From Candidatus Melainabacteria bacterium 17Bon1m (GTDB lineage: Bacteria; Cyanobacteriota; Vampirovibrionia; Obscuribacterales; Obscuribacteraceae), in NCBI GenBank assembly GCA_032128875.1, contig JAVLKG010000001.1:192001-256000 (forward strand): a stretch of DNA of 64,000 nt, in the 5' to 3' direction. The translations under genes and the position numbers were made by a program. This document shows, one piece after another, positions 43,340 through 51,524 of this stretch. Under the pieces are notes generated by a model that saw nothing but the letters and a program-made list of their open reading frames with translations, searched no databases and was not told where the DNA came from. The first letter of the stretch is position 1. Every line of letters starts with the position of its first letter.

Positions 43340-44560
43340 ATGCTAACTAAAAATCGAAATGAAGTCCTGTCGCTGCTGCTGACAGGCGCACGTTTGATCG
43401 ATATGCCGACCCTCGAACAAGGTTATGCTTCATCCGCCCGTTTGAGCACACCATTGCACAAAGTGCTTGTGATGCTGGGCTTCGTTAGTCAGTTCAAGAT
43501 GGACCGAGTGCTGCACGCAGAGACAATGATTCGCGTTCACGAGCTGTCGCCGGATCTGGCGGTGAAAGCACTGCGCATTGCGACAACGCAACAGCTCACA
43601 TTCGAGGAAGCGCTCGATGCGCTGGGCGACGAACACAAGAAAACGCAATTGATGCCAACTGCGTCCAACGAGATCACGAATCTTTTGGTCGAAGCAGGCT
43701 GCATCAACAACGAGCAAATAGGGCGAGCGCTCAAAACTTCGTTGGAGAACGGAATGCAAATGGGACGCGTACTTGTCTTTCATCGCGACGTCACCAGTCA
43801 GGTAATGAAGGCTGCGATTGCTTGCTGCATGTTGATGCAAGAAGAGAAGATTGGCTTGGCGTCAGCAGTTGAAGCGGTGAAGCATGTGCGCAAAACAAAT
43901 CAATCTGTAGAACAAGTGATGTTCCAACACAATATTTATCACGAAGAGCCAGGTCAGGGACCGAGGATTCATGAGCTTTTCGCAATGGCAGGTTTTGTGT
44001 CAGATACCGACTTGATGGAATGTCTCGAATTGCATGTATTGCGTGGACGGCAGATTGGTCAACTCTTTATTGAACAAGGTTTGATTAACAGTACCGTTTT
44101 GGAAAATGCGATTGTATTGCAAGGCATGGTCGCAAGTGGGGCCATCAAGGCGTATCATGCTGCAGAAGCCTTGAAGACGTCGTACAACAAAGAAGTTTCG
44201 ATCTATCAAGCTCTCGGCGAACTAAACCCCCCGGCATTTCCAGCAACGCCGAATCTCACTTTCGGTGAATTGCTTCTCTCTGCGAATTTGGTCAAGCGCG
44301 AAACGTACGACAGCTATTTCGAAGGACTCGAATTGTGTTCTCGGCAGATGGCGAAGAAACTTCTCGCCGCCGGAACGATCAACGACAAGACATGCGTCAC
44401 TGCATTGCGTGTGTTATCGCTGAACAACGAAGGATTTATCTCGAACAAAGATGCAGTCGAGATCCTTCGGCACGTGGTGTCATACGACGCGAACCTCGAC
44501 GAACAGCTTGCAGCCTGGGCTCACTTCGCACCAAATCGGATGCAATGGATCTGGCGGTAG
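43340..44560 (+). CDS. Tandem MshEN-like repeat protein, paralog A
   Basis: Repeats resembling RLGxxLxxxGxIxxxxLxxxLxxQ, e.g. RQIGQLFIEQGLINSTVLENAIVLQ and ITNLLVEAGCINNEQIGRAL. Confidence 0.75.
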   Translation: MLTKNRNEVLSLLLTGARLIDMPTLEQGYASSARLSTPLHKVLVMLGFVSQFKMDRVLHAETMIRVHELSPDLAVKALRIATTQQLTFEEALDALGDEHKKTQLMPTASNEITNLLVEAGCINNEQIGRALKTSLENGMQMGRVLVFHRDVTSQVMKAAIACCMLMQEEKIGLASAVEAVKHVRKTNQSVEQVMFQHNIYHEEPGQGPRIHELFAMAGFVSDTDLMECLELHVLRGRQIGQLFIEQGLINSTVLENAIVLQGMVASGAIKAYHAAEALKTSYNKEVSIYQALGELNPPAFPATPNLTFGELLLSANLVKRETYDSYFEGLELCSRQMAKKLLAAGTINDKTCVTALRVLSLNNEGFISNKDAVEILRHVVSYDANLDEQLAAWAHFAPNRMQWIWR

Positions 44561-45028
44561 AAACGATTTGCATGAGTGACAACTTCTATTTCAGATACAA
44601 ATAATAAATCCCCCCTGAAGTTTTTTGACTCATGCGGTGAGCAACGGTAGAAAGCGAGCTCGGCTATGCCTTTGAATTAAAAGCAGGCGAGTCCTTGGTG
44701 TCAGATTGAATTTCGCAAAAGGCGCTTGAAGTCAATTCGAACAAATTTGTAAGGTGATTTGTTGGCTGTCGATCTGGCGATCCCACTTTTGAGGGAACTG
44801 ACAACCCGTGGCGCGAGTTAAGTTCTGGAAGTCTAAGATCGGCTTGTGATTCGAGAGTTTTCTATATTTTCTTAGCAAGTTACCAGCGGGATAGTATTGT
44901 GGTTATAATTCTTGCCCTTGGGGTCTTTTGGCAGCAAATATATTTCCAGTGATTTTTTGCTGGCAGTTCATTTTCTTGTGTGGTTTTTTGCTCCACAAGC
45001 TCTCTTTGCGCACCCTCCATGTGCTCAG

Positions 45029-45046
45029 CATCATCATCATCATCAT
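45029..45046 (+). repeat. (CAT)6 microsatellite running into the flavoprotein start codon
   Basis: CATCATCATCATCATCAT followed by G; the ATG is at 45045. Confidence 0.9.
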
Positions 45047-45596
45047 GAACGAACAGAATGTGCAATCAGTTTTGCTGATAGGGAGCGGTTCAATCGCTGC
45101 TGGAAACATCGCTGGTTTGACCAGCAAGCTGTGTGAAAACTTTCGGGCTTCAGTGAGAGTTGTGTTGACGTCAGCCGCTACCAAGTTCACTTCGGTTGAA
45201 TTTATAAAATACGCTGGTGGCGCGCTGGAGGTTTTTACAGATCAAAGCACTCAGCAAATGTCGGACTTTCCGAATCACATAGCTCTCCCTGCTCAATCGG
45301 ACCTGACGATTGTCTATCCAGCAACCGCAGACTTCATCGGAAAAATGGCAAACGGTCTAGGAACTGATCTTGCCTCTACGATTATGCTTTATGCAGATCA
45401 AAACATAATTGTTGTGCCATCCATGAACGTGGAAATGTGGCGAAACAAGTTTGTTCAGAAAAATGTAAGAGCGCTCCAAGACGAGGGCATTCATATGATT
45501 GAGCCTAATGATGGTATGGCGCCATCAGTGGACGAGATAGTTGTGCAAGTGCAGAAGTATTTATCCCAAAAATTCAAAATTTACCAACAAATATAA
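45045..45596 (+). CDS. HFCD flavoprotein, LanD/EpiD-like peptidyl-cysteine decarboxylase
   Basis: GSGSIAA, catalytic His in NHI, PATADFIGKMANG (PASAN-type), PSMNVEMW (PxMNxxMW); no CoaB domain and no ACGD Cys clamp. Confidence 0.85.
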   Translation: MNEQNVQSVLLIGSGSIAAGNIAGLTSKLCENFRASVRVVLTSAATKFTSVEFIKYAGGALEVFTDQSTQQMSDFPNHIALPAQSDLTIVYPATADFIGKMANGLGTDLASTIMLYADQNIIVVPSMNVEMWRNKFVQKNVRALQDEGIHMIEPNDGMAPSVDEIVVQVQKYLSQKFKIYQQI

Positions 45597-45609
45597 AGGA
45601 GAATTTCAT

Positions 45610-46320
45610 ATGTCAGTGAAGGCAGACGAGAAACACACAATTACTTTGGAAGTTAGAGTGCCGATAGCCGTTGACGAAGGAAAGCGAGCGAAGTTTGAAG
45701 ATGCAATGACAAATTTTATACTCGGTCACGATCGAATTCGTCCTGAACTTCATGATGCGTTAGTTGAAAGAGGTGTCGATATTAAACGCTTAAATGAGCT
45801 GTCTACTCCTGAAAAGCTGGGAGTTTGCAGATCAAAGGATGCTATGGAGTTCATTCCAACGCCTGAGCTTGTGGGTATAGGTAATAGAGCGGGAATAGAT
45901 TTTCGAGCTGGTGGAAAGCTCAACATTGAATTTGACTATTCAAATTCAAATGCTAGCAGCACGGATGTATTGGAAATGAAATTGCAATTACCATCTTCAA
46001 TTGAGGGCGTTGCTTCTGGTCAGGTTGGAAATATAATGAGGTCACTTTTTGGTGATTGTCACCTCTCAGTCAGAGCTCAGGATTATCTGCTTGCTCACGG
46101 AATTGATATTGCGGATTTGGCGGCTCAGAACATTGCGTCTTTAGGAAATGGAAGTGTTCCTCCAACTGCCCGAGTTGATAAATCTGTAGCAGATACATTA
46201 GATCAATTCGGATTGAACACCGCACGGCTAGGAAAAATTCAAGTGAAAGCTATGGCTGGTGATGCGGCACCGCTCAATGCGAATCCACCGATTGCGTGGA
46301 GCAAAACAACCTGCTGTTAA
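45610..46320 (+). CDS. Candidate RiPP precursor: duplicated ~100-aa leader domain plus C-terminal tail ending WSKTTCC
   Basis: RBS AAGGAG, ATG 45610, 236 aa; terminal Cys-Cys; located between the HFCD and radical SAM genes. Confidence 0.7.
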   Translation: MSVKADEKHTITLEVRVPIAVDEGKRAKFEDAMTNFILGHDRIRPELHDALVERGVDIKRLNELSTPEKLGVCRSKDAMEFIPTPELVGIGNRAGIDFRAGGKLNIEFDYSNSNASSTDVLEMKLQLPSSIEGVASGQVGNIMRSLFGDCHLSVRAQDYLLAHGIDIADLAAQNIASLGNGSVPPTARVDKSVADTLDQFGLNTARLGKIQVKAMAGDAAPLNANPPIAWSKTTCC

Positions 46321-46328
46321 GGTGATTT

Positions 46329-47807
46329 ATGATATATCGTTCTATGGCGCCCCCGCAGTGGGGGCGCTTGCCAGGTCATATACAACTTGAGTTGGTACCG
46401 ACTCAGACACTCGTGGATGGTGAAGACACTATTCTCTTTCCGCTCCTAAAGCATTCTTGGCTCAGAGTATCAACCAAGGATCTAGAGAATGTGTTAATGC
46501 TTGATGGGCGTACTATCGACAGTATTCGCAATTCCCGCGAATCAATTAAGGACCTGATTCCGCTGTTGGATTCACTGTATTCCTCAGGTCTCTTATCCAT
46601 TGATGGACATAGTGGACTAGATGCAGAGCGTAAAGAAGAAACCTCTGGTCCGTCGACACTATTGATCAAGATGACTGGAGCTTGCAATATAGCCTGCAGC
46701 TATTGTTATGACTTTGATCAAAGTAGATGGAATGGACGTGGGAGTTCAACCCATGCGAAACATTTGATTGCTGATTCGTTTTCGGTCAATGATTCGATTA
46801 CTGTTATGTTTCACGGTGGTGAACCACTGCTGCATTTTTCTGAGATCAAAGAACTCGTATCGTTTGCAAACGAAATTGCCCATCGCGATGGAAAGAAAAT
46901 CACCTATTCCATTCAAACTAATGGATTGTTGCTGGATGAGGAGATCGTTCAATACCTTTTGAACGAGTCTTTTGACGTCGGCATTTCTTTGGATGGCCCC
47001 CTAGAAATTCATAATTTGTACCGTGTTGATCACAAAGGAAGGGGAACCTTCGAAGCATTAATAAAAAAATTCGATGAGTTTCCTGAATTTATGAGAACTC
47101 GAGTTGGATTTATGAGTGTAATTACTCAGAATTCGGTGTTTCATTTGGATCAAGTATGGCAATTCTTTCGAGATCTAGATGTTCAAACATGGAAACTGTC
47201 TCCAATGCTGCCGGAAGGTCGTGCATGTACAAATCAAGTGACTGCCAATTACATCGAGAGTTTTGTGGACTTTTTAGAAGAACGACTGCTGGAAATCATA
47301 AATGGAAGCTACCATCGCCCATACCTAATAAATCTGATTCAGGCAGTAGAACCATTTTTATCTCGTAATAGTAAGAATGTTTGTACTTCCTTTCCTTGTG
47401 GAGCTGGTCGTGATTTCGTGGTTTTAGATGCAAAAGGCGCACTGCGCTCGTGTGACTGCAGCTATCGTGATGACTTTTTTCTTGGCAATGCTGACTTTGA
47501 TTTGTTGAAGATGGTAAAGACTGAGTTTAAGAAAAGCGACCTGGCGAAGCGTGAACAGTGGCTTGTGGATTCTGAATGTGGACAATGTGTTTGGCTCCCA
47601 TTTTGCGGTGGAACTTGTCCCGCCGAAGCGCTCGCAAACACAGGAACTGTTCTAGCCGTTGACGAGCTGGAGTGCAACTTGCGAAAAAGGCTATTCCCAA
47701 GGATTGCAAAAGAAGTGTCTCAAGAAAGCTCGAACCTTCGCGAATATATTCAACAACGCCGAAGCGATAGGGCAAACTCTCTTACGAAGGTTAAGGAGGC
47801 CAGGTGA
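46329..47807 (+). CDS. Radical SAM/SPASM peptide-modifying enzyme with ~105-aa N-terminal extension (putative RRE)
   Basis: CNIACSYC, FHGGEPLL, IQTNG, GISLDG; SPASM cysteines VC...PCGAG...SCD...CGQCVWLPFCGGTCP...EC. Confidence 0.9.
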   Translation: MIYRSMAPPQWGRLPGHIQLELVPTQTLVDGEDTILFPLLKHSWLRVSTKDLENVLMLDGRTIDSIRNSRESIKDLIPLLDSLYSSGLLSIDGHSGLDAERKEETSGPSTLLIKMTGACNIACSYCYDFDQSRWNGRGSSTHAKHLIADSFSVNDSITVMFHGGEPLLHFSEIKELVSFANEIAHRDGKKITYSIQTNGLLLDEEIVQYLLNESFDVGISLDGPLEIHNLYRVDHKGRGTFEALIKKFDEFPEFMRTRVGFMSVITQNSVFHLDQVWQFFRDLDVQTWKLSPMLPEGRACTNQVTANYIESFVDFLEERLLEIINGSYHRPYLINLIQAVEPFLSRNSKNVCTSFPCGAGRDFVVLDAKGALRSCDCSYRDDFFLGNADFDLLKMVKTEFKKSDLAKREQWLVDSECGQCVWLPFCGGTCPAEALANTGTVLAVDELECNLRKRLFPRIAKEVSQESSNLREYIQQRRSDRANSLTKVKEAR

Positions 47808-48646
47808 GGATACAGGGCGATAATTGGGATCACATGATTTATGAGCGTTTAGGTAGCGATGGAAATCTCGATTCTTCTTTCTCTCACCTTGATATGGTGC
47901 ATTTGACGGTCGAGATGCTCGGAGAATCTCTTCCCACGTATTTGCGTGAGAATATTTCGAAAATCCAACGAGTCGTGTCTCAAAAAGATTATGCCGATTG
48001 CGATCTAACACATGTAATTATTGATTGGCTTGCTCGCTACTTTAAAGACATGCACGATTCAATGAAATATCCGTACCTAAGTAATCACGAAGAATGGCAA
48101 CATTTAACAGAGACAAATGCAAATATTCCAAATAGTGGCTGTGTATACGTAACATTCCAACTTGGTTTTCCACTTTTAGTGCCGATATTACTGGCGGATT
48201 TATTGAATTCTCCTGTCCGTGCACTTATTCATGATCAAAATCCAAAGGTCGCAAGCTTCTATCAATCGGTTCGGCATAATTTGGATTTTGCGTATGTGAA
48301 CTATTTAGATCCTTATGAGCAGATATCCTTTTTAAAGAGTGGTGGTCTTTTAGTTGCAAATATAGATACGGCTTATCCAGGCACAAGAGTAGAATCAATG
48401 CCGATTTTGAATTCCTGTATTCGTGTCCCATCTGGATTCATTCCACTGGCAAAACGAGCTAAAGCAGCTATATGTCCCGTTTCATTAGTTGCGAACGAAG
48501 GACGCCTTGAGCGTCACTTTGGCTTGCCTATTTGCAGCCAGAAGAACTCGATATTCGAAATACTTAAGTCGCTCTCTGGTTTCTTTGAAACAGTAATCAG
48601 AAAACATCCGGAGCAATGGCTAGCTTGGTCAAGTCTGGAGTTTTAG
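47804..48646 (+). CDS. LpxL/LPLAT-superfamily acyltransferase-like protein (divergent)
   Basis: LKSGGLLVANID, PSGFIPLAKRAKAAICPV, FETVIRKHPEQWLAW; GTGA overlap with the rSAM stop and an AAGGAGG RBS. Confidence 0.7.
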   Translation: MRIQGDNWDHMIYERLGSDGNLDSSFSHLDMVHLTVEMLGESLPTYLRENISKIQRVVSQKDYADCDLTHVIIDWLARYFKDMHDSMKYPYLSNHEEWQHLTETNANIPNSGCVYVTFQLGFPLLVPILLADLLNSPVRALIHDQNPKVASFYQSVRHNLDFAYVNYLDPYEQISFLKSGGLLVANIDTAYPGTRVESMPILNSCIRVPSGFIPLAKRAKAAICPVSLVANEGRLERHFGLPICSQKNSIFEILKSLSGFFETVIRKHPEQWLAWSSLEF

Positions 48647-48671
48647 CATTCAATTAAAAAACGCAAGTTGC

Positions 48672-49196
48672 ATGCAGCACGACAGAGCGATTAGAGAATT
48701 AGTGGTGTACTTTTATCCTGAATTATTTGTCAAACGAATTGGATTTGGCTGCGAGTCTGATGTTTTTCTTGGCACTGATATCTACAGCCACTTGAAGGTC
48801 AAGTATTTCAAATATGAGAGTGACTTTTGTCGTCATTATTTTGGAATACCACTTTTATTAGAAGCATTGAGCGACCTTGGCTATAGTGACTACGTTGACA
48901 TTCCTGGAATTGTCGCCGTTAACAAGGAACTCCTCGCAATCGTGTCACCGTACATATCCGAACAGCAGCGATTTGATTCTAAAGAGTTTGAGTCAAGTAA
49001 GTTGAGAGCGGTAACGGCATTGTTGTGTGCGGCGGGCAGAGTTGTGACATTAACACCTGAAAAGATTGCATTGAAGTTCAATACTCAAGCACACTCAATG
49101 AATGCCTTGGTTGAAGATTTTGTCTTTTCAGGAGTGGATTTCTCGGGCGACAATCTAATGTTTGACGGTGTTCGCTGGTGGGCCATTGATTTCTAG
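48672..49196 (+). CDS. Minimal protein-kinase-like (RIO/APH-like) protein
   Basis: P-loop IGFGCESDVF, KVKYFK, catalytic-loop DFSGDNL, terminal WWAIDF. Confidence 0.65.
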   Translation: MQHDRAIRELVVYFYPELFVKRIGFGCESDVFLGTDIYSHLKVKYFKYESDFCRHYFGIPLLLEALSDLGYSDYVDIPGIVAVNKELLAIVSPYISEQQRFDSKEFESSKLRAVTALLCAAGRVVTLTPEKIALKFNTQAHSMNALVEDFVFSGVDFSGDNLMFDGVRWWAIDF

Positions 49197-49244
49197 CATT
49201 TGTGTCTTCGTGAAATCGTATGATTGAGAGTGCATAGGTATTTG

Positions 49245-49604
49245 TTACCCGATTACAGTTGCCGCGAGCTTTGCACACAGGAACGCTATCGCGATCGCCT
49301 GCTGCTCACTTGTCTTCGTGCGTTTCGCTTCCTTCAGTATCCTCCTAATGCATGCAATTTCTTCACCACAAGGGAACCGAATACACAGCTCGTGTTCAGC
49401 TGCTGTCAGCACTTTGATATACCGCTTCTCGAAACGAGTCAACTTTGGTCGCGATTCAATTTCTTCTCTTATCGCACGGAGTTGTTGCAGTTCTCTCGTC
49501 GTGAGTCGGTTCGGCGGCTCGAGAGATTCCTGCAGGTATTCTTCATCTGTGACAGCGTACGAGCGACCATACGCGGTCGCATAGTTATGCGAAAAGATTT
49601 CCAT
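49245..49604 (-). CDS. Hypothetical protein
   Basis: 119-aa helical ORF converging on the operon. Confidence 0.5.
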   Translation of the reverse strand: MEIFSHNYATAYGRSYAVTDEEYLQESLEPPNRLTTRELQQLRAIREEIESRPKLTRFEKRYIKVLTAAEHELCIRFPCGEEIACIRRILKEAKRTKTSEQQAIAIAFLCAKLAATVIG

Positions 49605-49706
49605 GTCAGACAGTTCTACTTATTAGGGGAAGGCACGCCTGGTGCTGGACGTTAGCACCTTAGCGCGGCAATTTTCAAAAAATCTTGAAATTCCCCAAAG
49701 CGAGAA

Positions 49707-50063
49707 CTAGTTACATTTATCGCCCGTCAGATTAATCCTTGGACCGGCTTGTGCGTCTTCGACAATTTCCATTTTGCAAAGACCATTCGGATTTCGATTA
49801 TTCGCGGCATCGCGCATTGAACTCCAGAGTTGTCTTTCTTGATTGGCGAGTTCATTGAATATGCCTTGAGAGCGTTGGGTCGCGGCGGGGTCGCCGTTCA
49901 GAATTGCCTCGCCGTTTTGACGAAAGTCGTTGAAGTAGTTAGTTGCACCGGGCAGGCTGAGCGTACACTCGTTGATGAGCCGATTAGATGCGTCCCGATT
50001 GCCCGCATTCAATTGTGTTGCGATGGCGTCAATTTGTCCGGGCGAACAAGATCTGTCTGACAT
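49707..50063 (-). CDS. Hypothetical protein
   Basis: 118-aa ORF with an AGAGG RBS-like sequence upstream. Confidence 0.6.
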   Translation of the reverse strand: MSDRSCSPGQIDAIATQLNAGNRDASNRLINECTLSLPGATNYFNDFRQNGEAILNGDPAATQRSQGIFNELANQERQLWSSMRDAANNRNPNGLCKMEIVEDAQAGPRINLTGDKCN

Positions 50064-50196
50064 GAGAAACCTCTAGAAGCTGGCAAGAGTAGTCTTTGCC
50101 CCAACCTACCATGCGGGTATGACATTACCTTGACACGCGTGAATTGGACGTGAACGGCGCGTCGGCGGTGCAAAGGCGGTGAGTTTATGAGTGGAC

Positions 50197-50268: not shown

Positions 50269-50324
50269 GGTTTTAAGGAGAGCCCAGAAGACTGCTATGC
50301 TTGCTCAGGAAGTCCCCTTCTTCT

Positions 50325-50363
50325 CTTCTTCTTCTTCTTCTTCTTCTTCTTCTTCTTCTTCTT
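50325..50363 (+). repeat. (CTT)13 microsatellite
   Basis: Thirteen perfect CTT units counted directly. Confidence 0.95.
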
Positions 50364-50384
50364 GCTTTGGAAACCGGAAAACTG

Positions 50385-51524
50385 ATGCCTCGCAATTCCA
50401 TCCTTGCTCTCTTACTAGCGCTGTTCACCGCGCAGTTTCTCTCCTCCTGCTCAATTATGCCGCCGCCACCTGATGATACGAAGGGTGTCGAAGAGTGGCT
50501 TGTGATGCCTATTTTTTTTGCAACCAATCGAGCCTTTGCCGGTAAGAACGGAAGTGTTGACTATTCCGAGGACGAGAGTCCGAACGGTCTTTTGTTTGGC
50601 GTCAAGAACGTGGTAGTGCCCTTTCCCGTTCGTACGCCACTCGAAAAGACGACTGAAGAGCGTATGCAATGGCAGCGTTTCAATATGGACCATGACTCGA
50701 AGAAGCTGAAAGTCATTCCTCCTCCCCCTGCGCTCTGCAAAGTCACAGATTCGACGTTTTCCAAAGAAGAAATGGTTGCGGCGCTGGATGCGTACCGAAA
50801 GAGAGCAGGAAGTCTTGAATCAGTAGTGTTCGTCCACGGATGCTGTGCAACTTTTGAAACATCGGCTCTGAGAGCGGCTAAGCTTGCGACACACATGCAG
50901 GTTCCGGTGCTTTTATATGATTGGGTTTCACCAAAGGGGTTCAAAAACTACCTGAAGAACGAGACTTTGGCAGAGCAGTCTGTCGATGGTTTTCTTTCCG
51001 CTCTGAATGCTTCTGAGAAAATCCTGGGTGCCAAAAATATGACCTTGGTTGGACACAGCATGGGTGCGTTCATTCTTGACCATGCTCTCTTGCGCAGGAA
51101 GGCACAGGGCGACGCCGCAGCTCCGGAAAAATTCAGCGAGTTGATAATGTCTAATGCCGATACCGATGGAAAGACCTTTCTGAATCATGCGCGCGATTTT
51201 GCCTCGAATGCGAAAATCACGCGAGTCTATTTTTCCAGATCCGATGACCGGCTGAAATATTCTGCGTACTCTCATGGGGATTTTAAGCGGCTTGGTCTGC
51301 CAGGAACGCTTGCTCAAGCGTTGGCTAAAGTTCCTGGGATACAAATGATTGACGTAACCGCAAGCAAAACGAATCACGAGCTCCCATTTTGGCTCGTATC
51401 TAACATGCACCGCTTCGGGAATGTCGGACCAGTCAACGATTTTGTTCTGAATAAGAACGCTAATGGACTTTTTGAATTGGAGCGAACAGTGTCACCACTT
51501 ATGGAGCCTTCCGGCTTAGAGTGA
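50385..51524 (+). CDS. DUF900-type alpha/beta hydrolase lipoprotein
   Basis: Lipobox LSSC, IFFATNR, VVFVHG, GHSMG. ATG 50385 is preferred; the ORF track starts at 50301. Confidence 0.85.
   Translation: MPRNSILALLLALFTAQFLSSCSIMPPPPDDTKGVEEWLVMPIFFATNRAFAGKNGSVDYSEDESPNGLLFGVKNVVVPFPVRTPLEKTTEERMQWQRFNMDHDSKKLKVIPPPPALCKVTDSTFSKEEMVAALDAYRKRAGSLESVVFVHGCCATFETSALRAAKLATHMQVPVLLYDWVSPKGFKNYLKNETLAEQSVDGFLSALNASEKILGAKNMTLVGHSMGAFILDHALLRRKAQGDAAAPEKFSELIMSNADTDGKTFLNHARDFASNAKITRVYFSRSDDRLKYSAYSHGDFKRLGLPGTLAQALAKVPGIQMIDVTASKTNHELPFWLVSNMHRFGNVGPVNDFVLNKNANGLFELERTVSPLMEPSGLE

What the first reader, a model, noticed from the sequence alone, without database searches (positions are those of the whole stretch)
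45045..49196. Candidate novel RiPP system: LanD-type decarboxylase, large CC-ending precursor, rSAM/SPASM, acyltransferase-like protein and minimal kinase
Seen: five co-directional, tightly coupled genes (gaps of 13, 8, -4 and 25 bp) in a more AT-rich block (spot check 48001-48060 = 23/60 GC). The second gene ends in ...NANPPIAWSKTTCC-stop. Established: stand-alone HFCD/LanD flavoproteins oxidatively decarboxylate a C-terminal Cys to an enethiol, and RRE-bearing rSAM/SPASM enzymes install thioether or C-C crosslinks in peptides. As I recall, LanD plus rSAM coupling onto an Asn C-beta in a C-terminal N-x(n)-C motif has precedent. Inference: this operon makes an aminovinyl-Cys-type macrocyclic peptide without any LanB/LanM/LanKC dehydratase, possibly also acylated and/or phosphorylated. 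I do not recognise this enzyme combination or precursor architecture from a described class.
Basis: partly seen in the sequence, partly recalled or inferred. Interest (0 to 1): 0.95.

Follow-up and report, generated by a model that had tools for sequence, protein, structure and literature searches.

The report
Rare cassette modifying a protein's Cys-Cys tail
A small, horizontally acquired gene set pairs a cysteine-decarboxylating flavoprotein and a radical SAM enzyme with an unusually large 236-residue substrate protein whose last residues are always Thr-Cys-Cys, pointing to an undescribed kind of peptide or protein modification.

Summary
Five co-directional genes lie at the stated coordinates with the stated gaps. 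They form the most AT-rich 4-kb stretch of the window, inside a segment (44565-49416) missing from a same-genus genome.

- The first four genes are syntenic in Virgisporangium, two Streptacidiphilus species and a metagenome contig: HFCD flavoprotein, 236-aa protein, rSAM/SPASM, LpxL-like protein.
- The 236-aa protein belongs to a very rare family with no Pfam or NCBIfam match. It is an internally duplicated folded domain with a flexible tail.
- In 15 of 25 database relatives, and in all five loci, the tail ends W-x-[K/R]-x-T-C-C. No Asn is conserved there.
- The flavoprotein keeps the HFCD catalytic motifs and lacks the CoaC clamp. A true CoaBC lies elsewhere in the genome.
- The LpxL-like protein lacks the canonical H-x4-E dyad.
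- Gene 5 has a kinase-like fold cut off after the DFG-type Asp. It is missing from Streptacidiphilus and fused to gene 4 in one metagenome protein.

Best reading: a new variant of the LanD-plus-rSAM route (syc/AviCamCys), acting on a protein-sized scaffold. The chemistry is unresolved. No description was found in the papers searched.

The parts
44565..49416 (.). Variable segment (island) carrying the cassette. It is absent from the closest same-genus genome examined.
   Evidence: blastn against the syntenic region of G011 shows homology ending at window 44564 and resuming at 49417, with about 10 kb of other genes in between in G011. GC of 45045-49196 is 0.428 against 0.492 elsewhere. The precursor family was found in 0 of 60 relatives.
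45045..45596 (+). Gene 1: stand-alone HFCD flavoprotein (LanD-type peptidyl-Cys decarboxylase candidate), 183 aa.
   Evidence: PF02441 at 1.9e-21. CoaBC model scores 116 bits against a cut-off of 219.7. It keeps His78, P-S-M-N-x-x-M-W and Asn140. It lacks the 11-residue insert that contains A-C-G-D in the genome's own CoaBC. A true CoaBC lies at G000:C6:14902-16074, 429 bits. Best PDB matches are 7cfu, EpiD, 6jls and MrsD, ahead of CoaBC and AtHAL3a.
45610..46320 (+). Gene 2: 236-aa scaffold/precursor protein. It is an internally duplicated folded domain (about residues 8-222) plus a flexible C-terminal tail.
   Evidence: No Pfam or NCBIfam hit. Good Shine-Dalgarno sequence. AF2 mean pLDDT 75.6, pTM 0.72, tail residues 233-236 below 50. 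The two halves align at hhalign probability 92%, E 5e-7. Only 22 representatives were found among 1.84 billion.
46297..46317 (+). Codons for the conserved tail W230-S-K-T-T-C-C236 (family motif W-x-[K/R]-x-T-C-C at the very C-terminus).
   Evidence: W230, T234, C235 and C236 are invariant, and K232 is K or R, in alignments A1 and A2. 15 of 25 database relatives and all four fetched loci end with the motif.
46329..47807 (+). Gene 3: radical SAM/SPASM enzyme, 492 aa, with an N-terminal extension of about 108 aa.
   Evidence: PF04055 at 2.7e-13. C119-x3-C123-x2-C126 is invariant, as are Cys 352, 357, 375, 417, 420, 426, 430 and 449. Best NCBIfam models are PapB, anSME, QhpD and DynA, all far below their cut-offs. 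Best PDB matches are anSME 4k36, ChlB and CteB.
47804..48646 (+). Gene 4: LpxL-like (lipid A acyltransferase fold) protein, 280 aa, without the canonical catalytic dyad. It overlaps gene 3 by 4 bp.
   Evidence: PF03279 at 23.2 bits against a cut-off of 22.3. 28 of 30 Atlas feature hits are LpxL-family clusters. Q119 is invariant, and no H, D or E occurs in 113-131, where E. coli LpxL has H132-x4-E137. H143, N146, N186 and D188 are also invariant. It is a discrete family of 23 clusters.
48672..49196 (+). Gene 5: truncated protein-kinase-like fold protein, 174 aa, ending right after the DFG-equivalent Asp173. It is an accessory member of the cassette.
   Evidence: AF2 pLDDT 76. All listed Foldseek matches are kinase-like: RIOK3 at 1.8e-4, PsiK, APH(2''), Bud32 and LicA. 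G24-x-G26-C-E, K44 and D173 are invariant, but D156/N161 occur only in the window copy among 5 sequences. It is present in L002 and L005, absent from L003, L004 and both Streptacidiphilus genomes. It is fused to gene 4 in P0105.

Best explanation
This is a horizontally acquired cassette with a four-gene core and one accessory gene. It post-translationally modifies the C-terminal tail W-x-[K/R]-x-T-C-C of its own 236-aa scaffold protein.

Step 1 (inferred from family and active-site features): the stand-alone HFCD flavoprotein oxidatively decarboxylates the terminal Cys236 to a C-terminal enethiol, as LanD enzymes do.

Step 2 (inferred by analogy with SycC/SycD and from the nearest rSAM subfamilies): the rSAM/SPASM enzyme abstracts a hydrogen from a side-chain carbon of one of the invariant tail residues (K/R at -5, T at -3 or C at -2). 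It then joins that carbon to sulfur of the Cys-Cys end. The result is an unsaturated thioether (AviCys-like) ring made without any Ser/Thr dehydratase.

Step 3 (weakly inferred): the LpxL-like protein and the truncated kinase-like protein work as one bipartite accessory unit. Its role would be tailoring or substrate handling by a non-canonical mechanism, not standard acyl transfer.

Shown here: the genes, their conservation and synteny, the invariant tail, the catalytic motifs and the island context. Not shown: any of the chemistry, or expression.
For: - Synteny: HFCD, precursor, rSAM and LpxL-like genes recur in the same order in 4 of 4 fetched loci from other lineages.
- Tail: T-C-C, W and K/R are invariant at the extreme C-terminus while the preceding residues vary. 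The tail is modelled as disordered.
- HFCD: it keeps His78, PSMNxxMW and Asn140 and lacks the CoaC Cys-containing clamp. A housekeeping CoaBC is present elsewhere. The top-ranked PDB rows include EpiD and MrsD, ahead of CoaBC and AtHAL3a.
- rSAM: it has a complete CX3CX2C and SPASM cysteine set. Its nearest models form thioethers or act on Cys C-beta: PapB, QhpD, SCIFF and anSME.
- Precedent: a LanD plus rSAM/SPASM pair makes a C-terminal unsaturated thioether (review PMC10989515, section 14).
- Gene 4/gene 5 link: they are adjacent in 3 loci and fused in P0105.
- Gene 4 constraint: 17 invariant columns over 21 sequences, which suggests a constrained function.
Against: - No biochemical or expression data exist. 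The RNA-labelled runs that hold the stretch give 22-39 kb contigs at flat depth, so they do not show transcription.
- The acceptor residue of the precedent (Asn) is not conserved.
- The rSAM scores far below every curated subfamily cut-off, so its reaction type is open.
- No protease or transporter is conserved beside the cassette.
- At least six family members lack the tail altogether, so the domain has a role independent of the tail.
- The scaffold carries two further invariant Cys (C73, C150) that this model does not use.
- A recognition (RRE) domain in the rSAM was not detected.
Confidence: 0.55

Rival explanations
1. Mycofactocin-like carbon-carbon chemistry on the Cys-Cys end. After HFCD decarboxylation of Cys236, the rSAM makes a C-beta radical on Cys235. 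That radical adds to the enamide carbon of the decarboxylated residue, closing a five-membered lactam that carries two sulfurs. The product would be an ene-dithiol or dithiolopyrrolone-like heterocycle. It would either stay on the scaffold as a protein-derived metal-binding or redox group, or be released after the conserved K/R.
For: - Both terminal Cys are invariant and adjacent.
- HFCD enzymes serve the Cys-Cys derived holomycin pathway as well as RiPPs (passages of PMC11350588).
- MftC, an rSAM/SPASM enzyme, couples decarboxylation of a C-terminal residue with C-C bond formation to the neighbouring residue (passages of PMC11350588).
- anSME, which attacks Cys C-beta, is among the best matches of the rSAM.
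- The lack of transporter and protease, the folded scaffold and the absence of an obvious signal sequence by eye fit a cofactor-like or scaffold-built product.
Against: - It rests on chemical analogy only.
- MftC is not among the 25 best NCBIfam models shown for the rSAM.
- It does not explain the invariant W, K/R and T.
- No dithiol oxidase or releasing peptidase is in the cassette.
- Searches for a ribosomal dithiolopyrrolone found no precedent.
Confidence: 0.12
2. Canonical AviMeCys formation plus a separate rSAM crosslink. The kinase-like protein, with the LpxL-like protein, phosphorylates the invariant Thr234 and eliminates the phosphate to give dehydrobutyrine. The enethiol or Cys235 thiol adds to it. 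The rSAM instead makes a three-residue W-x-K/R cyclophane of the darobactin or triceptide type.
For: - Thr at -3 is invariant.
- Gene 5 has a kinase-like fold with Gly-rich loop, beta3 Lys and DFG-type Asp.
- Gene 4 and gene 5 are fused in one homologue, like two-part dehydratases.
- Cyclophane-forming maturases (YhhB, GrrM/OscB, DynA, DarE, FxsB, AmcB) are among the rSAM's matches.
- That W-x-K matches the darobactin crosslink motif is recalled, not tested.
Against: - Gene 5 was not found in either Streptacidiphilus genome, although both keep the same tail.
- Its D-x4-N catalytic loop is present in only 2 of 6 sequences.
- No known lyase fold is present, and an LpxL fold has no known elimination activity.
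- A T(-3) to C(-1) ring would hold 3 residues, whereas known Avi(Me)Cys rings hold 4-6 (PMC10989515).
Confidence: 0.12
3. The 236-aa protein is not the substrate. The flavoprotein and rSAM act on a small molecule or on an unlinked peptide, and gene 2 is an enzyme or regulator that happens to end in Cys-Cys (for example a metal-binding or lipidated end).
For: - The scaffold is a conserved folded domain with tail-less paralogues and two further invariant Cys.
- The HFCD scores higher on the CoaBC model than on the CypD model.
- No leader-like region or RRE was detected.
Against: - The tail is invariant exactly where HFCD enzymes act, at a free C-terminal Cys.
- Gene 2 sits between the two enzymes with 13- and 8-bp gaps, in every locus.
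- The HFCD lacks the CoaC clamp, and a true CoaBC exists elsewhere.
- No small ORF ending in Cys is conserved in the short flanks.
Confidence: 0.08

Closest known systems
syc cluster of S. ureilyticus YC419: SycA precursor, SycB MFS transporter, SycC rSAM/SPASM, SycD LanD-like. Product residue is AviCamCys.
   Same: A stand-alone LanD-type flavoprotein sits next to an rSAM/SPASM enzyme and a substrate ending in Cys. No Ser/Thr dehydratase is present. The enethiol from the terminal Cys is proposed to be captured by rSAM radical chemistry (PMC10989515, section 14 read). The primary paper, Cheng et al., Angew. Chem. 2023, is not held.
   Different: - SycA is 22 aa with Asn19...Cys22. Here the substrate is 236 aa with a duplicated folded domain and a W-x-[K/R]-x-T-C-C end without conserved Asn.
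- There is no MFS transporter.
- Two extra conserved proteins are present, LpxL-like and kinase-like.
- Sequence relatedness of gene 3 to SycC could not be tested, because no SycC sequence was available.
Avi(Me)Cys RiPPs: epidermin/mersacidin (EpiD, MrsD), cypemycin (CypD), thioviridamide-type
   Same: An HFCD flavoprotein acts on a C-terminal Cys. EpiD and MrsD are among the best solved relatives of gene 1.
   Different: Those pathways supply a dehydro-amino acid through LanB/LanM/LanKC, kinase-lyase pairs or Cys dethiolation. None of these enzymes is in the window's cassette. The CypD model scores only 25 bits.
Quinohemoprotein amine dehydrogenase maturation (QhpD acting on the gamma subunit QhpC)
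   Same: The QhpD model is the best NCBIfam match of the actinomycete orthologues and the 4th best for the window copy. That it is an rSAM/SPASM enzyme making thioether crosslinks on a protein subunit rather than a short peptide is recalled knowledge.
   Different: Scores of 118-136 bits are far below the 453-bit cut-off. No QhpA/B/C/G genes are present. An HFCD is present here, and the modification site is a C-terminal tail.
Mycofactocin maturation (MftC on MftA)
   Same: The last two residues of a ribosomal product are processed by C-terminal oxidative decarboxylation followed by rSAM/SPASM crosslinking (passages of PMC11350588).
   Different: In mycofactocin one rSAM does both steps on Val-Tyr of a short peptide with a separate RRE protein. 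Here a flavoprotein would do the decarboxylation on Cys-Cys of a 236-aa protein. MftC is not among the 25 best models shown.
Holomycin (dithiolopyrrolone) pathway HFCD
   Same: An HFCD-family decarboxylase acts on a Cys-Cys derived intermediate to give a thioenol used for heterocycle formation (passages of PMC11350588).
   Different: Holomycin is non-ribosomal (NRPS-bound). No NRPS is present here, and no ribosomal counterpart is reported in the papers searched.

Membership tests
HFCD / LanD-type peptidyl-Cys decarboxylase | Flavoprotein (PF02441) fold above the Pfam cut-off | tested here: met
   76.8 bits against a cut-off of 22.7.
HFCD / LanD-type peptidyl-Cys decarboxylase | Conserved active-site His and P-x-M-N-x-x-M-W motif (motif identity recalled from EpiD/Dfp literature) | tested here: met
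   His78 and Asn140 are invariant. P-S-M-N-V-E-M-W is in the window copy, with N replaced by H in the three actinomycete-type copies.
HFCD / LanD-type peptidyl-Cys decarboxylase | Not the housekeeping CoaC: lacks the substrate clamp with the reducing Cys, and a separate CoaBC is present | tested here: met
   The 11-residue insert that contains A-C-G-D in the genome's own CoaBC is deleted in all 4 cassette HFCDs. CoaBC lies at G000:C6, 429 bits, over the cut-off. The cassette copy scores 116 bits, below the 219.7 cut-off.
HFCD / LanD-type peptidyl-Cys decarboxylase | Oxidative decarboxylation of a peptidyl C-terminal Cys | not testable with these tools
   Needs co-expression and mass spectrometry.
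Radical SAM / SPASM peptide maturase | CX3CX2C cluster motif and the seven-to-eight Cys SPASM motif | tested here: met
   C119, C123 and C126, plus C352, 357, 375, 417, 420, 426, 430 and 449, are invariant in 4 of 4 orthologues.
Radical SAM / SPASM peptide maturase | Membership of a curated subfamily (PapB, anSME, QhpD, SCIFF, DynA, DarE, YhhB and others) | tested here: not met
   Best scores are 156.8 (PapB, cut-off 340), 156.6 (anSME, 349) and 135 (QhpD, 453). The orthologues behave likewise.
Radical SAM / SPASM peptide maturase | N-terminal RiPP recognition element (PqqD-like) | tested here: inconclusive
   No PqqD match for residues 1-108 of 4 orthologues at E up to 10. The CteB alignment starts at query residue 71. 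The N-terminal domain was not folded on its own.
syc-type AviCamCys RiPP system | LanD-like flavoprotein and rSAM/SPASM enzyme adjacent to a substrate ending in Cys | tested here: met
   System definition from PMC10989515.
syc-type AviCamCys RiPP system | Short precursor with an Asn three residues before the terminal Cys | tested here: not met
   The precursor is 236 aa. Asn occurs within the last 12 residues in 2 of 15 tail-bearing relatives and never at -3.
syc-type AviCamCys RiPP system | Clustered MFS transporter | tested here: not met
   No transporter among the five genes or the flanking genes scanned, nor in the flanks of L002, L003 and L005 that were scanned.
syc-type AviCamCys RiPP system | rSAM orthologous to SycC | not tested
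   No SycC sequence or model was available in the tools, and the primary paper is not held.
LpxL / lipid A acyltransferase (PF03279) | Pfam match above the cut-off | tested here: inconclusive
   The window copy scores 23.2 against 22.3. Of three orthologues, L003 scores 11.9 bits and the other two give no match. 28 of 30 Atlas feature hits are LpxL-family clusters.
LpxL / lipid A acyltransferase (PF03279) | Catalytic H-x4-D/E dyad (H132...E137 in E. coli LpxL; its catalytic role is recalled) | tested here: not met
   By offset from the Pfam-aligned N-P motif, the dyad would fall at about 119-125. Residues 113-131 hold no H, D or E, and Q119 is invariant in 21 of 21 sequences. The placement is approximate, because a direct profile alignment failed.
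Protein-kinase-like superfamily | Bilobal kinase fold | tested here: inconclusive
   All listed Foldseek matches are kinase-like (best E 1.8e-4, query TM about 0.5). However, the chain ends just after the DFG-type Asp, so most of the C-lobe is missing.
Protein-kinase-like superfamily | Gly-rich loop, beta3 Lys and metal-binding Asp | tested here: met
   G24-x-G26-C-E, K44 and D173 are invariant in 5 of 5 sequences.
Protein-kinase-like superfamily | Catalytic loop D-x4-N | tested here: inconclusive
   Present in the window copy (D156...N161) and in the fused homologue P0105, absent in the 4 other sequences.
Lanthipeptides (classes I-V) | Ser/Thr dehydratase (LanB, LanM, LanKC/L or kinase-lyase pair) in the cluster | tested here: not met
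   None among the five genes or the window flanks. One related locus (L005) has a divergent LanB upstream, but L002 and L003 showed none among the flanking ORFs scanned.
Tautomerase (4-OT/MIF) superfamily, for the scaffold domain | Beta-alpha-beta repeat fold | tested here: inconclusive
   The top rows in Foldseek (E at best 0.09) and VIA-align (Z at most 4.5, 80-95 residues aligned, rmsd about 4 A) are tautomerase-type, but below the level that separates relatives from chance. The chain does not start with Pro after the initiator Met. The catalytic role of Pro1 is recalled.

The most novel reading that the evidence does not exclude
The cassette makes a ribosomal counterpart of the dithiolopyrrolone or ene-dithiol chemotype. 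The flavoprotein decarboxylates the last Cys. The rSAM then joins C-beta of the penultimate Cys to the enamide carbon, in the manner of MftC. This gives a sulfur-rich five-membered lactam built on, and perhaps functioning on, a 236-aa scaffold protein as a protein-derived metal-binding or redox group. The LpxL-like and kinase-like pair would be a new ATP-dependent tailoring enzyme.
Probability: 0.1. Interest if true: 0.95.

Novelty: new variant of a known kind. Interest (0 to 1): 0.8.

Why it matters
Only one LanD-plus-rSAM pathway is described in the papers I could search, and it acts on a 22-residue peptide at an Asn. This cassette would extend that logic in three ways:
- to a protein-sized, internally duplicated scaffold;
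- to a different invariant motif ending in Cys-Cys;
- to two accessory protein families that have no annotation, one an acyltransferase fold without its catalytic dyad and one a kinase fold without most of its C-lobe.

It occurs in cultivable actinomycetes (Virgisporangium, Streptacidiphilus, and by protein names also Streptomyces, Kitasatospora and Micromonospora). It also occurs in a relative of Candidatus Melainabacteria, so it can be tested directly by heterologous expression.

The outcome would be either a new crosslink type for enethiol chemistry or a new protein-derived sulfur heterocycle. It would also give a function to three orphan families.

Tried and rejected
- Complex prediction of gene 2 with gene 4 gave no verdict (score 0.01, mark 0.32). 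It is not used either way.
- Expression: four runs labelled RNA, all from one sample and one study, hold the whole stretch. Their contigs are 22-39 kb across both strands at flat depth, and the longest records run to 156 kb. That looks like DNA and shows no transcription.
- Profile searches of the gene 4 and gene 5 families against PDB sequences found nothing meaningful.
- hhalign of the gene 4 family against E. coli LpxL gave no usable alignment.
- A Pfam scan of the rSAM N-terminus for PqqD/RRE found nothing.
- An Atlas search with the scaffold gave no hit at 0.9 or above.
- A planctomycete marker test (PF07596) rang nowhere, controls included, so it says nothing.
- Promoter and terminator scans did not exceed shuffles usefully (7 promoter-like sites against 8.5 expected).
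- The repeat search showed no flanking direct repeats or mobile-element signs.
- Earlier findings of this scan held nothing by place, sequence or words.
- Asn as thioether acceptor is rejected as not conserved.
- The flavoprotein as housekeeping CoaC is rejected.
- A hidden short precursor is rejected. The intergenic gaps are 13, 8, -4 and 25 bp, and the small flank ORFs with a Cys near their end have no support.
- Motif strings searched in papers returned only primer sequences.

Full report
**Observation**

All are on the + strand, with gaps of 13, 8, -4 and 25 bp. The second product ends ...NANPPIAWSKTTCC, and the 48001-48060 spot check is 23/60 GC. Genes 2, 3 and 4 have clear Shine-Dalgarno sequences.

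The block has 0.428 GC against 0.492 for the rest of the window. It ranks 2nd lowest of 300 sliding windows of its size.

**Is the cassette real, and is it an island?**

A search with the 236-aa protein found 7 relatives in a 5.8-billion-protein collection. A profile search that read all 1.84 billion representatives found only 22. The family is therefore very rare.

Scans of genome and metagenome contigs returned four loci: Virgisporangium ochraceum (L002), Streptacidiphilus anmyonensis and S. melanogenes (L003, L004), and one metagenome contig (L005). In all four, tblastn finds the HFCD, the scaffold, the rSAM and the LpxL-like gene in the same order, at 26-42% identity.

Gene 5 is present in L002 and L005. 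It was not found in L003 or L004, nor anywhere in the two Streptacidiphilus genomes. The core is therefore four genes plus one accessory gene.

Other distribution and context results:
- The scaffold family was found in 0 of 60 relatives of the window's genome: 12 same genus, 24 same family, 3 same order and 21 same class.
- It was found in 2 of 201 genomes sampled from the family of Streptacidiphilus, both already known.
- Proteins at least 90% identical to the window's flanking genes are named Candidatus Melainabacteria or Obscuribacterales by their sources. One scaffold cluster is from Streptomyces arboris and S. cyaneofuscatus, annotated hypothetical.
- In the nearest same-genus genome checked (flank protein 97% identical), DNA homology ends at window 44564 and resumes at 49417. 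About 10 kb of unrelated genes lie between those points there.
- The flanks in the window are unrelated genes: a c-di-GMP-motif protein, an amidase-like protein, NUDIX, a glycosyltransferase, DUF900 and esterase hydrolases, and an ion channel.

The cassette is thus a horizontally spread island of patchy distribution.

**The scaffold protein (gene 2)**

It has no Pfam, NCBIfam or Atlas family.

AlphaFold2 with a 10-row alignment gives pLDDT 75.6 and pTM 0.72. The model has a beta-alpha-helices-beta unit occurring twice. The last four residues are below pLDDT 50.

The two halves align with each other at hhalign probability 92%, E 5e-7, over 94 columns. This indicates an ancient internal duplication.

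Fold searches give only weak matches, though they consistently point to tautomerase-type folds: Foldseek E at best 0.09, VIA-align Z at most 4.5. I treat the fold as unassigned.

In the alignments, W230, T234, C235 and C236 are invariant, and position 232 is K or R. Two further Cys in the domain (C73, C150) are also invariant.

Of 25 database relatives inspected:
- 15 end in W-x-[K/R]-x-T-C-C, as do the four loci.
- 6 (P0015, P0016, P0017, P0020, P0022, P0023) stop right after the last strand and have no tail.
- 4 are fragments or diverge at the end.

Asn occurs in the last 12 residues of only 2 of the 15.

**The enzymes**

*Gene 1* is an HFCD flavoprotein (PF02441, 1.9e-21).
- It keeps His78, P-S-M-N-x-x-M-W and Asn140.
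- Like its three cassette orthologues, it lacks the 11-residue insert that contains A-C-G-D in the genome's own CoaBC.
- That CoaBC lies on another contig at 429 bits.
- Among solved structures, the rows ranked above CoaBC and plant PPC decarboxylase include EpiD and MrsD.

This fits a peptidyl-Cys decarboxylase that releases an enethiol. The role of the clamp Cys is recalled knowledge.

*Gene 3* has the rSAM motif and a full SPASM cysteine set, invariant in 4 of 4 orthologues.
- Its best curated models are PapB, anSME, nif11-type and QhpD for the window copy.
- For the actinomycete copies they are QhpD, PapB, anSME and DynA.
- All are at roughly a third to a half of the cut-offs.
- It is therefore a separate subfamily whose nearest neighbours mostly make thioethers or attack Cys C-beta.
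- Its 108-residue N-terminal extension gave no PqqD match.

*Gene 4* passes PF03279 marginally in the window copy only. The Atlas feature search agrees with the LpxL assignment, with 28 of 30 hits.
- Where E. coli LpxL has H132-x4-E137, gene 4 has T-F-Q-L-G-F-P-L-L with no H, D or E.
- Q119 is invariant in 21 of 21 aligned family members, as are H143, N146, N186 and D188.
- For that alignment I left out two fragments (P0101, P0104) and the window's own database entry from the 23 found.
- The family has no members outside this kind of cassette at E below 1e-3, and all named members are 'hypothetical protein' from Streptomyces, Kitasatospora, Micromonospora and Virgisporangium.
- The genome has no other PF03279 protein.

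*Gene 5* has five database clusters, including its own.
- Its model (pLDDT 76) matches only kinase-like folds among the listed Foldseek rows: RIOK3, PsiK, homoserine kinase, APH(2''), Bud32 and LicA.
- The Gly-rich loop, beta3 Lys and terminal Asp173 are invariant.
- The D-x4-N catalytic loop is present only in the window copy and in P0105.
- P0105 is a 403-aa metagenome protein. Residues 2-240 match gene 4 (E 2e-37) and residues 251-403 match gene 5 (E 5e-24).
- This natural fusion ties the two accessory proteins together functionally.

**How it most likely works**

- Shown: conservation, synteny, motifs and island context.
- Inferred, step 1: the flavoprotein decarboxylates Cys236 to an enethiol.
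- Inferred, step 2: the rSAM then captures the reactive end by radical chemistry.

The direct precedent is the syc system. There SycD makes the enethiol of a 22-aa peptide, and SycC, an rSAM/SPASM enzyme, makes an Asn19 C-beta radical that bonds to the sulfur, giving AviCamCys. I read section 14 of review PMC10989515 and a passage of PMC11162475. The primary paper is not held.

Here the acceptor cannot be Asn. The candidates are K/R at -5, T at -3 or C at -2.

Two rivals use the invariant residues differently. Neither can be excluded:
- an MftC-like C-C closure between the two cysteines, giving a dithiolopyrrolone-like lactam (MftC and holomycin HFCD passages of PMC11350588);
- Thr dehydration by the gene 4/5 pair together with a W-x-K/R cyclophane.

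**Comparison and novelty**

The cassette works like the LanD-plus-rSAM route. It fails three of that system's descriptive features: the short precursor, the Asn motif and the transporter. It also adds two orphan families.

Eight full-text searches found no description of this gene set or motif. Subscription papers and supplements were not visible.

I file it as a new variant of a known kind. There is a real chance, about one in ten for the specific lactam reading, that the chemistry is of a new kind.

**What remains open**
- Expression is untested.
- The role of the tail-less paralogues and of C73 and C150 is unknown.
- Whether the product is released is unknown.
- The activity of genes 4 and 5 is unknown.

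Noticed in passing
P0015, P0016, P0017, P0020, P0022, P0023 (database relatives of window 45610-46320): At least six members of the scaffold family end right after the last beta-strand and have no W-x-K/R-x-T-C-C tail. They still keep the two internal invariant Cys. Their gene neighbourhoods could not be seen.
   Followed up: partly
P0105 (metagenome protein; relatives of window 47804-49196): A natural fusion of the LpxL-like and kinase-like proteins in one 403-aa chain. Its longest contig has the same length (13899) as that of scaffold relative P0007, which suggests they share a contig.
   Followed up: yes
L005:1921-6135 (minus strand): In the metagenome locus, a full LanB dehydratase (1091 aa) and a cupin/JmjC-like protein lie divergently upstream of the cassette. 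Nothing similar was seen among the flanking ORFs scanned in L002 or L003, or in the window.
   Followed up: partly
window 43340-44560: A 406-aa protein with two MshE-type c-di-GMP-binding motifs lies directly upstream of the island. The same-genus genomes carry 9-11 paralogues of it each.
   Followed up: partly
window 45020-45044 and 50330-50385: Simple-sequence runs. An (ATC)n tract lies immediately before the start codon of gene 1. A long CTT/TCT-type tract encodes a poly-Leu stretch at the start of the DUF900 hydrolase ORF. RNA-labelled contigs break at 50312-50372.
   Followed up: no
window 49417-50157 versus L013: Two small unannotated minus-strand ORFs (49245-49604 and 49707-50063) are conserved at 86% DNA identity in the same-genus genome, although they lie between variable segments. 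Neither has a Pfam or NCBIfam match.
   Followed up: partly
P0099, P0100 (Streptomyces relatives of window 47804-48646): Some Streptomyces copies of the LpxL-like protein carry a 90-100 residue low-complexity, Gly/Glu/Arg-rich C-terminal extension in place of a kinase-like partner.
   Followed up: no
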